A stretch of 64,000 nucleotides of DNA. It comes from a virus (lineage: Duplodnaviria > Heunggongvirae > Uroviricota > Caudoviricetes > Straboviridae). Below, in pieces: positions 18,861-19,563 of the stretch. Every line of letters begins with the position of its first letter. Positions within the stretch are counted from its first letter, which is position 1. A program made the translations under genes and the position numbers. The notes beneath the pieces were generated by a model. The model searched no databases. It saw only the letters and a program-made list of their open reading frames with translations, and was not told the DNA's origin. The stretch covers positions 163,399-227,398 of IMG/VR virus record IMGVR_UViG_638277085_000001. One strand, written 5' to 3'.

Positions 18861-19124
18861 TTAAACGGAAATGATAATGCCGCTTTCAGTCTCACCTCGT
18901 TCAAGCGCAGCGTGCTTGATCTGAAGTTGTGATACTGCTTGCTGAAGTTCAATAATAGCTTTGTCATAAAGCTTGTTGTTCTCTTTAAGCAAAGCAATCT
19001 GATCGGTCTGCATACCAATGATGTACGTTAGTAGAACAACGTTCTCATCAGTCGTCAGCGTTTCAGGCGCTTCATTGTACTTCTTCAGCACCGCTTCGGT
19101 AGATAGATCAGTCATTATTAGCAA
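18861..19124 (-). CDS. Hypothetical protein
   Basis: 87-aa ORF. Confidence 0.4.
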   Translation of the reverse strand: MLIMTDLSTEAVLKKYNEAPETLTTDENVVLLTYIIGMQTDQIALLKENNKLYDKAIIELQQAVSQLQIKHAALERGETESGIIISV

Positions 19125-19563
19125 CCCATTCTAGATCTAATGGTTCGATATATTCATCGACAAGGCGAACCTCTGTATTGATGAACATAGGGGTAATTAC
19201 GTCGTCATAAGACAATGTGACGTGCGGAGTATAGTCAGGGTAATCGTGAGTACCACCGATAGAGATAAGGTCTTCGTGACGTTCTACAAGAGCAGGACAT
19301 GACATCTTAGCAACGACCGCGTGTTTACCGTCTTGCGTTTTCCAACAGTCAACTTGTTCAACAGTGGCAACGAAAGTGGTATCTACAACGGGCACATCAA
19401 TTTGCTTACGACTATAAAGCACAGTCACGTGGAATTTATCGGGATCTAACGGATTTTTTAGACGAAGCGTTTTTTGCAAGCGAACTAGTTCTTGCTTACT
19501 TGCTTCGTCTAATTTGATACCAACGTAAGTTCCCTGACTCTCAAGGAACTTAGATAGTTTCAT
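19108..19563 (-). CDS. 57B: 2H phosphoesterase superfamily protein (two H-x-T-x motifs: HVTVLY and HVTLSY), LigT/2',3'-cyclic phosphodiesterase-like; T4 57B-like by position and size
   Basis: 151 aa. Two HxTx motifs about 80 residues apart. It sits next to the 57A-like and gene 1 homologues, as in T4 (57B is 152 aa). Confidence 0.55.
   Translation of the reverse strand: MKLSKFLESQGTYVGIKLDEASKQELVRLQKTLRLKNPLDPDKFHVTVLYSRKQIDVPVVDTTFVATVEQVDCWKTQDGKHAVVAKMSCPALVERHEDLISIGGTHDYPDYTPHVTLSYDDVITPMFINTEVRLVDEYIEPLDLEWVANND

What the first reader, a model, noticed from the sequence alone, without database searches (positions are those of the whole stretch)
19108..19563. 2H-phosphoesterase (LigT/CPDase-like) protein in the T4 57B position, adjacent to the tRNA island
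Two HxTx motifs (HVTVLY, HVTLSY) identify a 2H phosphoesterase, at the same size (151 aa) and synteny as the uncharacterised T4 gene 57B. It could trim 2',3'-cyclic phosphate tRNA ends produced by host anticodon nucleases or by processing of the unusual tRNA-like RNAs. Together with the CCA-adding enzyme and a possible RNase-H-fold protein (4310..4840), it forms a set of RNA end-healing functions.
Basis: partly seen in the sequence, partly recalled or inferred. Interest (0 to 1): 0.5.

Follow-up and report, generated by a model that had tools for sequence, protein, structure and literature searches.

The report
KVP40 copy of anti-CBASS nuclease Acb1
This gene is the Vibrio phage KVP40 version of T4 gene 57B, shown in 2022 to encode Acb1, an enzyme that destroys the cyclic-nucleotide alarm signals of the bacterial CBASS defence; it is a real but already known anti-defence gene, not a tRNA repair enzyme.

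Summary
A 151-aa ORF lies on the minus strand at 19108..19563. It carries two HxT motifs (H45-V-T47, H114-V-T116) and sits in the T4-like order 57B-57A-gene 1-gene 3. The window is Vibrio phage KVP40 (100% identity), where the gene is annotated 57B.

T4 57B was characterised in 2022 (Hobbs et al., Nature) as Acb1. [quoted passage not shown]

The KVP40 protein matches Pfam Acb1 end to end (E 1.7e-46). It is 39% identical to T4 Acb1. Its confident AlphaFold model superposes best on the Acb1 crystal structures (TM 0.78-0.86). It keeps every catalytic, base-stacking and adenine-reading residue named for Acb1.

LigT/CPDase models score below their cut-offs. KVP40 has pseT, rnlA and rnlB elsewhere. 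Distant Acb1 genes have no tRNA neighbours. No CCA-adding enzyme was found in the window.

A 2025 paper already lists Acb1 as a core gene of the KVP40 genus. Verdict: already known, low interest.

The parts
19108..19563 (-). acb1 (gene 57B, KVP40.0322, NP_899569.1): 151-aa Acb1-family 2H phosphoesterase; coordinates include the TGA stop at 19108..19110
   Evidence: ORF; 100% identical to KVP40 record, annotated 57B; Pfam PF23474 Acb1 E 1.7e-46, residues 10-148 on profile 1-143/144; 39% identity to T4 Acb1; AF2 pLDDT 89.1 and best fold match 7T27/7T26
19423..19431 (-). First catalytic motif H45-V46-T47 (equivalent to T4 Acb1 H44/T46)
   Evidence: Read from the sequence; H and T invariant in all 32 aligned sequences; H44 is a catalytic residue in T4 Acb1 (PMC9117128)
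19216..19224 (-). Second catalytic motif H114-V115-T116 (equivalent to T4 Acb1 H113/T115)
   Evidence: Read from the sequence; invariant in 32 of 32 sequences; the H44A/H113A double mutant of T4 Acb1 is inactive
19111..19146 (-). C-terminal segment, residues 140-151: E140 (equivalent to the adenine-N6-contacting E141) and W146 (equivalent to the lid Trp W147); predicted flexible lid
   Evidence: Residue mapping (E in 27 of 32, W in 29 of 32 sequences); pLDDT drops to 63 and then 36 over the last residues, which fits the disorder-to-order lid described for residues 145-152
19563..19829 (-). Context: 57A-like tail fibre chaperone. Its TAA stop shares one base with the acb1 ATG (TAATG), which suggests translational coupling
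   Evidence: phrog_1002 tail fiber chaperone E 1.2e-18; junction sequence GCTGAATAATGAAA; T4 has the same 57A/57B overlap
19839..20477 (-). Context: gene 1, dNMP kinase, upstream in the same transcription direction
   Evidence: PF21448 DNMK E 6e-30; phrog_139; annotation. A promoter-like site at 20542..20514 and a terminator-like hairpin at 20699..20682 lie just upstream of it (consensus matches only)
18861..19115 (-). Context: small conserved ORF (KVP40.0321, phrog_15958, function unknown) immediately downstream. Its likely ATG at 19115 overlaps the end of acb1 by 8 nt (ATGACTGA)
   Evidence: The phrog_15958 match starts at residue 4 of the TTG-started ORF; junction sequence

Best explanation
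The ORF encodes the KVP40 orthologue of phage T4 Acb1 (gene 57B). Acb1 is a small, metal-independent 2H phosphoesterase. It captures the cyclic di- and tri-nucleotide second messengers made by host CBASS cyclases (3'3'-cGAMP, cUA, cAAA and similar signals containing at least one adenosine). Aromatic residues stack on the bases, a glutamate reads adenine N6, and a C-terminal Trp-bearing lid closes over the ligand. The two HxT motifs then catalyse attack of the 2'-OH on the 3'-5' bond. This gives a 2',3'-cyclic phosphate intermediate that is hydrolysed to a linear 3'-phosphate product. Destroying the signal keeps CBASS effectors (for example CapV-type phospholipases or Cap5/Cap4 nucleases in Vibrio hosts) from being activated, so the infected cell does not commit suicide before phage release. 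Shown here: family membership, predicted fold, conservation of all named functional residues, and synteny. Inferred from the characterised T4 and FBB1 orthologues and nine other tested homologues: substrate range, chemistry and anti-CBASS role in KVP40.
For: Pfam Acb1 full-length match, E 1.7e-46. phmmer against the solved Acb1 of Erwinia phage FBB1, E 2.3e-24. 39% identity to T4 Acb1 over 144 residues, E 4e-30. AF2 model pLDDT 89.1, pTM 0.80, with top Foldseek hits 7T27/7T26 (Acb1; TMq 0.78, TMt 0.84-0.86, E 7e-13) followed by the Burkholderia phage BCSR5 phosphodiesterase chains deposited as Acb1. Residue map T4 to KVP40: Y12 to Y13, H44 to H45, T46 to T47, W74 to W74, F107 to Y108, H113 to H114, T115 to T116, E141 to E140, W147 to W146. 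All are conserved, and the tetrad is invariant in 32 sequences. Synteny 57B-57A-1-3 matches T4. All 29 database homologues carry the precomputed Pfam Acb1 domain, and one (Vibrio phage nt-1) is named Anti-CBASS protein Acb1 by UniRef. Experimental basis for the family: PMC9117128. PMC12028318 lists Acb1 as core to Schizotequatrovirus and reports CBASS I/II in susceptible Vibrio hosts.
Against: No experiment has been done on the KVP40 protein itself. KVP40 was not found in the held supplementary files of the founding paper. At 38-39% identity, substrate preference could differ in detail from T4 and FBB1. Position 74 is W as in T4 but F in FBB1, and position 108 is Y as in FBB1 but F in T4. The last four residues are modelled with low confidence, so lid closure cannot be verified.
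Confidence: 0.88

Rival explanations
1. One reading: an RNA end-healing 2',3'-cyclic phosphodiesterase. It would trim the cyclic-phosphate ends of tRNAs cut by host anticodon nucleases, or of the nearby tRNA-like RNAs, and work together with a CCA-adding enzyme and an RNaseH-like protein.
For: The 2H fold is shared with LigT/ThpR and CPDases (weak hits; Foldseek E 1e-5 to 1e-3). The Acb1 reaction itself passes through and hydrolyses a 2',3'-cyclic phosphate. The gene lies about 1.3 kb from a large tRNA island. One distant homologue lies two genes from a Thg1-like gene and another near an RNA-ligase-domain gene.
Against: All LigT/CPDase profiles score below their curated cut-offs, while Acb1 is at 158 bits. 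The Acb1 pocket accepts only cyclic di- or tri-nucleotides and is closed by a lid. T4 lacking acb1 grows like wild type without CBASS. KVP40 encodes pseT (kinase, 3'-phosphatase and cyclic phosphodiesterase), rnlA and rnlB more than 100 kb away. There are no tRNA genes within the 3-6 kb read on each side of four distant Acb1 loci. The tRNA proximity is inherited T4-type gene order. No CCA-adding enzyme is detectable in the window.
Confidence: 0.04
2. The enzymatic activity is of the Acb1 type, but the principal in vivo target in Vibrio is not CBASS. Candidates are cA3 from type III CRISPR, or host housekeeping or other defence cyclic dinucleotides. Alternatively the protein is delivered with the virion and acts immediately on entry.
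For: [quoted passage not shown] Over-expressed Acb1 reduced colony formation of cells carrying Panoptes, a system that monitors depletion of 2',3'-c-di-AMP. Acb1 was detected in virions of a Schizotequatrovirus.
Against: CBASS I and II are present in susceptible Vibrio hosts. All residues specifying the cGAMP complex are conserved. T4 acb1 deletion had no effect on Panoptes defence. This is a refinement of the main explanation rather than a true alternative.
Confidence: 0.07
3. It is an 'RNA ligase' (2'-5' RNA ligase), as RefSeq and PHROG phrog_755 label it.
For: Annotation in NC_005083.2 and many related records; phrog_755 description.
Against: The label is a historical name for the 2H superfamily. 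The protein has no nucleotidyltransferase ligase domain. The characterised orthologues are hydrolytic phosphodiesterases. The true RNA ligases of KVP40 are rnlA and rnlB.
Confidence: 0.01

Closest known systems
Phage T4 Acb1 (gene 57B, NP_049750.1)
   Same: Orthologue: 39% identity over 144 residues. Same length class (151 vs 152 aa). Same position downstream of 57A, gene 1 and gene 3 and upstream of the tRNA region. All catalytic, stacking and adenine-reading residues conserved.
   Different: Y108 replaces F107. The neighbour on the tRNA side is a small ORF of unknown function (phrog_15958) rather than ipI. No biochemistry on the KVP40 protein.
Erwinia phage FBB1 Acb1 (PDB 7T26 apo, 7T27 with 3'3'-cGAMP product)
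   Same: Best sequence hit (E 2.3e-24) and best structural hit (TMt 0.84-0.86, rmsd 2.5-2.7 A over about 140 columns). Compact 2H fold with HxT/HxT tetrad and C-terminal Trp.
   Different: 37-38% identity. FBB1 has F where KVP40 and T4 have W74.
Burkholderia phage BCSR5 phosphodiesterase, deposited as anti-CBASS protein Acb1 (PDB 9Q2G, 9Q2Y)
   Same: Same family and fold with an open/closed lid; E 6.6e-08 by sequence.
   Different: Only about 20% identity in the structural alignment, and longer (165 aa). A distant branch of the family.
LigT/ThpR and plant/bacterial 2',3'-cyclic nucleotide phosphodiesterases (TIGR02258, PF02834; PDB 5LDM, 1IUH, 5H7E, 1FSI)
   Same: 2H superfamily: two HxT/S motifs on a pseudo-twofold beta-sheet core; chemistry involving a 2',3'-cyclic phosphate.
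   Different: Profile scores below curated cut-offs. TM only 0.43-0.64 and 12-16% identity. These proteins are larger (about 165-185 residues) and lack the Acb1 aromatic cage and lid. They act on RNA ends or small nucleotides, not on cyclic oligonucleotide immune signals.
Eukaryotic-virus 2H phosphodiesterases that degrade immune nucleotide signals (penguinpox cGAMP PDE 9BKQ/9CIW; coronavirus ns2 4Z5V; rotavirus VP3 5AF2)
   Same: Same superfamily and same strategy: a viral enzyme destroys a host nucleotide second messenger (summary of Hobbs et al., PMC12064943).
   Different: Weak structural similarity (E 3e-3 to 5e-2). They target 2'3'-cGAMP or 2'-5' oligoadenylate, whereas Acb1 cannot cleave the 2'-5' linkage of 3'2'-cGAMP.

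Membership tests
Acb1 (Pfam PF23474, anti-CBASS protein 1) | Sequence matches the family profile above the curated threshold over its full length | tested here: met
   157.9 bits against a cut-off of 27, E 1.7e-46, residues 10-148 on profile 1-143/144
Acb1 (Pfam PF23474, anti-CBASS protein 1) | Compact 2H phosphoesterase fold of about 150 residues with central beta-strands forming a U-shaped pocket | tested here: met
   Predicted, not solved: AF2 pLDDT 89.1, pTM 0.80. Best PDB matches 7T27/7T26 with TMt 0.84-0.86
Acb1 (Pfam PF23474, anti-CBASS protein 1) | HxT/HxT catalytic tetrad (T4 H44, T46, H113, T115) | tested here: met
   KVP40 H45, T47, H114, T116; invariant in 32 of 32 aligned sequences
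Acb1 (Pfam PF23474, anti-CBASS protein 1) | Aromatic residues stacking on the nucleobases (Y12, W74, F107, W147) | tested here: met
   KVP40 Y13, W74, Y108, W146. These columns are aromatic in 31 or more of 32 sequences, or in 29 of 32 for the lid Trp
Acb1 (Pfam PF23474, anti-CBASS protein 1) | Glutamate contacting adenine N6 (E141), which explains the requirement for an adenosine | tested here: met
   KVP40 E140; E in 27 of 32 sequences
Acb1 (Pfam PF23474, anti-CBASS protein 1) | Flexible C-terminal lid that orders over the ligand | tested here: inconclusive
   The lid Trp is present, and the C-terminal residues have low pLDDT (63 then 36), which fits flexibility. Closure cannot be modelled without the ligand
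Acb1 (Pfam PF23474, anti-CBASS protein 1) | [quoted passage not shown] | not testable with these tools
   Shown for T4 Acb1 and nine further homologues; the KVP40 protein has not been assayed
Acb1 (Pfam PF23474, anti-CBASS protein 1) | Confers escape from CBASS during infection | not testable with these tools
   T4 lacking acb1 shows a >300-fold defect on CBASS hosts. CBASS I/II reported in Vibrio hosts of the genus
T4 gene 57B orthologue group (positional) | Located immediately downstream of 57A, gene 1 and gene 3 on the same strand in T4-like genomes | tested here: met
   The 57A stop overlaps the 57B start in both phages
LigT/ThpR RNA 2',3'-cyclic phosphodiesterase (TIGR02258; PF02834; PF13563) | Score at or above the curated family cut-off | tested here: not met
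   TIGR02258 27.0 vs 65.7. PF02834 20.0 vs 23.3 and PF13563 24.6 vs 27
LigT/ThpR RNA 2',3'-cyclic phosphodiesterase (TIGR02258; PF02834; PF13563) | Closest structural neighbours are LigT/CPDase proteins | tested here: not met
   LigT, TT0787 and drCPDase rank below all Acb1 structures, with TMq 0.48-0.64 and 12-16% identity
T4-type tRNA repair pathway (Pnkp plus Rnl) | The gene is a component of, or clustered with, the healing and sealing enzymes | tested here: not met
   pseT (record 55200..56117), rnlA (52418..53563) and rnlB (77433..78440) lie more than 100 kb from 57B (record 182506..182961)

The most novel reading that the evidence does not exclude
The KVP40 enzyme might do more than T4 Acb1. 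It could be packaged in the virion and injected so that it acts before host cyclases fire, as hinted by virion proteomics of a related Schizotequatrovirus. Or it could have a widened substrate range that includes RNA or tRNA fragments ending in a 2',3'-cyclic phosphate, which would link anti-CBASS activity with RNA end healing next to the large tRNA island.
Probability: 0.06. Interest if true: 0.45.

Novelty: already known. Interest (0 to 1): 0.1.

Why it matters
It matters mainly as a correction. The gene should be annotated as anti-CBASS protein Acb1 (a cyclic oligonucleotide phosphodiesterase), not as 'RNA ligase', 'uncharacterised 57B' or a tRNA end-healing enzyme. The family's role in phage escape from CBASS is experimentally established. 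Acb1 has already been reported as a core gene of the KVP40 genus, so this copy adds no new biology. Its practical value is modest. Vibrio species are the classic home of DncV/CapV-type CBASS, so the KVP40 enzyme would be a convenient native system for studying Acb1 in a broad-host-range marine phage.

Tried and rejected
1. LigT/CPDase membership was tested with Pfam and NCBIfam and rejected, because every such model scores below its cut-off.

2. I asked whether the HxT pair alone is significant. It is not: 5% of shuffles have two or more HxT. The argument therefore rests on the profile, the fold and the residues, not on the motif.

3. I looked for KVP40 in the supplementary files of the founding Acb1 paper and found nothing in the files held. 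Prior recognition is documented through PMC12028318 and the UniRef name of the nt-1 homologue instead.

4. I looked for a functional link with tRNA genes in four loci holding three distant Acb1 homologues. None has a tRNA gene within the 3-6 kb read on each side.

5. I looked for the 'CCA-adding enzyme' in the window. None is annotated, and the 478-aa ORF at 4885..6321 is DUF2828/DUF7788 with no informative PDB sequence hit.

6. The promoter and terminator scan around the gene gave only consensus-level matches, close to the shuffle expectation (14 found vs 9.0 +/- 3.3). I did not use it for any claim beyond anatomy.

7. A literature search for a KVP40 Pnkp was uninformative. The record's own annotation answered the question instead.

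8. I did not use the large representative-protein search or a second structure prediction, because the question was already settled.

Full report
**What is there**

The window is a stretch of Vibrio phage KVP40. Bases 17000-23500 are 100% identical to AY283928.2/NC_005083.2, and window coordinate = record coordinate minus 163398.

The finding's coordinates, 19108..19563, hold an ATG-initiated ORF of 151 codons on the minus strand. Its product contains HVTVLY (His45) and HVTLSY (His114). The record annotates it as gene 57B (KVP40.0322, NP_899569.1, product 'RNA ligase').

The gene is tightly packed. The TAA stop of the upstream 57A-like tail fibre chaperone shares a base with its ATG (TAATG). 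The next small ORF (phrog_15958) most likely starts at an ATG that overlaps its last 8 nt.

Upstream on the coding strand lie dNMP kinase (gene 1) and tail gene 3. T4 has exactly this order: tRNA region, trna.2-4, ipI, 57B, 57A, 1, 3. T4 57B is 152 aa, not 151. The nearest tRNA-like gene is about 1.3 kb away, with three small ORFs in between.

**Is it more than chance?**

Two HxT motifs alone are not compelling. They occur in 5% of shuffles of this protein's composition.

The whole-protein evidence is decisive:
- Pfam PF23474 (Acb1) matches end to end at E 1.7e-46, 157.9 bits against a gathering score of 27.
- phrog_755 matches at E 8e-49.
- phmmer finds the crystallised Acb1 of Erwinia phage FBB1 at E 2.3e-24.
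- BLASTP against T4 gp57B gives 39% identity over 144 residues, E 4e-30.
- tblastn finds relatives in 1518 phage records, mostly T4-like phages of enterobacteria, Acinetobacter, Aeromonas and Vibrio.

**What the family is known to do**

Hobbs et al. 2022 (PMC9117128) purified a 3'3'-cGAMP-degrading activity from T4 lysate and traced it to 'the uncharacterized T4 gene 57B', which they named Acb1. Their main results:
- Nine further homologues were also active.
- The FBB1 structures show a compact 2H phosphoesterase fold.
- There is an HxT/HxT tetrad (H44, T46, H113, T115).
- Aromatic residues Y12, W74, F107 and W147 stack on the bases.
- E141 reads adenine N6.
- A C-terminal lid (residues 145-152) closes on the ligand.
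- T4 lacking acb1 grows normally without CBASS but suffers a >300-fold defect with it.

**Testing the KVP40 protein against those features**

I aligned it with T4 Acb1, the FBB1 sequence and 29 database homologues. Each named residue has its counterpart: Y13, H45, T47, W74, Y108, H114, T116, E140, W146. The catalytic tetrad is invariant in all 32 sequences.

An AlphaFold2 model built from 30 sequences is confident (pLDDT 89.1, pTM 0.80). Only the extreme termini are of low confidence, as expected for a mobile lid.

Foldseek against the PDB ranks the hits as follows:
- The two FBB1 Acb1 entries come first (E 7e-13; TM 0.78 on the query, 0.84-0.86 on the target; rmsd 2.5-2.7 A).
- Next comes the Burkholderia phage BCSR5 phosphodiesterase, whose chains are deposited as Acb1.
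- Only then come LigT, TT0787 and drCPDase (TM 0.48-0.64, 12-16% identity).
- Further down are the poxvirus cGAMP PDE, plant CPDase, coronavirus ns2, rotavirus VP3, AKAP18 and Usb1.

The specific family is Acb1, however, not LigT/CPDase. The LigT-type profiles all fall below their curated cut-offs: TIGR02258 27 vs 65.7, PF02834 20 vs 23.3, PF13563 24.6 vs 27.

**The proposed tRNA end-healing role**

Several results argue against it.

1. The proximity to tRNA genes is inherited T4-type gene order and is not a property of the family. Four loci holding three distant Acb1 homologues have no tRNA genes within the 3-6 kb read on each side. They sit among ribonucleotide reductase, NAMPT, DNA methylases, DNA ligase, PhoH and Nudix genes. 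One of them does have a Thg1-like gene two genes away, and another an RNA-ligase-domain gene about 4 kb away. I record these but do not regard them as a pattern.

2. KVP40 carries the canonical healing and sealing set elsewhere in the genome, more than 100 kb away: pseT (kinase, 3'-phosphatase and 2',3'-cyclic phosphodiesterase), rnlA and rnlB.

3. The Acb1 pocket takes only cyclic di- or tri-nucleotides, and T4 lacking acb1 has no growth phenotype without CBASS.

4. I could not find the 'CCA-adding enzyme' said to complete the set. None is annotated in the window. The only ORF of suitable size near the tRNA island, 4885..6321, matches DUF2828 plus DUF7788 and PHROG 'RNA-binding protein'. The RNaseH-like assignment for 4310..4840 is confirmed (PF04308, E 5.9e-17), but nothing ties it to 57B.

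**Prior recognition in this phage group**

- UniRef names the 91%-identical protein of Vibrio phage nt-1 'Anti-CBASS protein Acb1'.
- All 29 database homologues carry the precomputed Pfam Acb1 domain.
- A 2025 ISME J paper on Schizotequatroviruses, the KVP40 genus, lists Acb1 among core-genome anti-defence genes. It reports the protein in virions of phage 6E351A and notes CBASS I/II systems in susceptible Vibrio hosts (PMC12028318).
- The RefSeq product name 'RNA ligase' is a legacy label of the 2H ('2'-5' RNA ligase') superfamily and is misleading.

**Mechanism, and what is shown versus inferred**

Shown here: membership, predicted fold, residue conservation and gene order.

Inferred from characterised orthologues: KVP40 gp57B binds adenosine-containing 3'-5'-linked cyclic di- and tri-nucleotides. 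His45 and His114 cleave them through a 2',3'-cyclic phosphate intermediate to linear 3'-phosphate products. This blunts CBASS effector activation in Vibrio hosts.

I put this at about 0.88. The remainder is split three ways. One share goes to a different principal in vivo target or delivery mode, such as cA3 of type III CRISPR or virion packaging. A negligible share goes to the 'RNA ligase' label.

**Verdict**

This is a genuine gene, correctly spotted as a 2H phosphoesterase and as the 57B orthologue. Its function has been known since 2022, and its presence in this phage genus has already been reported. Novelty: already known. Interest: low (0.1).

The more curious things nearby are listed under things noticed in passing. 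They are the long tRNA-like RNAs with inserts in the anticodon arm, and the DUF2828 'RNA-binding' protein next to an RNaseH-like protein.

Noticed in passing
window 15906..16018, 17572..17692, 17703..17815 (minus strand): Three 113-121 nt RNAs, annotated 'tRNA-Pseudo' and not called by ARAGORN, match the whole Rfam tRNA model at 50-55 bits. They have intact acceptor, D and T arms but a 45-54 nt insert in place of the anticodon loop or arm. The three inserts share a small hairpin with loop CUGA(C/U)AAG. There is a weak, sub-threshold YrlA (Y RNA-like) hit at 17667..17731 (29.8 bits vs gathering score 69). They could be intron-containing tRNAs or tRNA-mimicking Y-RNA-like RNAs.
   Followed up: partly
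window 4885..6321 (minus) and 4310..4840 (minus): The 478-aa ORF KVP40.0300 is DUF2828 + DUF7788 (E 1e-45 and 9e-29) and PHROG 'RNA-binding protein'; it is not a CCA-adding enzyme. It sits next to a PF04308 RNaseH-like protein. Given the tRNA-like RNAs nearby, and that Y RNAs resembling tRNA are reported next to Ro60 orthologues in bacteria and phages (PMC4201824), a Ro60/Y-RNA-like module is worth testing. No PDB sequence hit supports or refutes this.
   Followed up: partly
window 17111..17187 (minus): ARAGORN calls this tRNA-Met (anticodon CAT), while the RefSeq record calls it tRNA-Ile-2. It may be a CAT-anticodon tRNA read as Ile after lysidine modification. The window holds three CAT-anticodon tRNAs in all.
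   Followed up: no
window 19108..19563; many related phage records: The product name 'RNA ligase' (from phrog_755 and the legacy 2'-5' RNA ligase superfamily name) has been propagated to hundreds of T4-like phage records for what is Acb1. Even the T4 RefSeq entry for 57B still reads 'RNA ligase'.
   Followed up: yes
window 18861..19124 (minus): The small conserved ORF downstream of acb1 (phrog_15958, function unknown) is annotated from a TTG at 19124. The family profile begins at residue 4, so the true start is probably the ATG at 19115, which overlaps the acb1 stop (ATGACTGA). It occupies the position that the anti-restriction gene ipI holds in T4, so it is a candidate anti-defence gene.
   Followed up: partly
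L004 6001..6465; L007 6001..6474: Distant Acb1 homologues in metagenomic phage contigs lie near other likely counter-defence or RNA genes. In L004 these are NAMPT/NAPRTase, several DNA methyltransferases and an RNA_ligase-domain protein. In L007 it is a Thg1-like protein.
   Followed up: no
window 21244..23214 (minus): A 656-aa 'hypothetical protein' (KVP40.0326) sits between gene 3 and the gp51-like and gp26 hub genes, where T4 has genes 2 and 4 next. I did not examine it.
   Followed up: no
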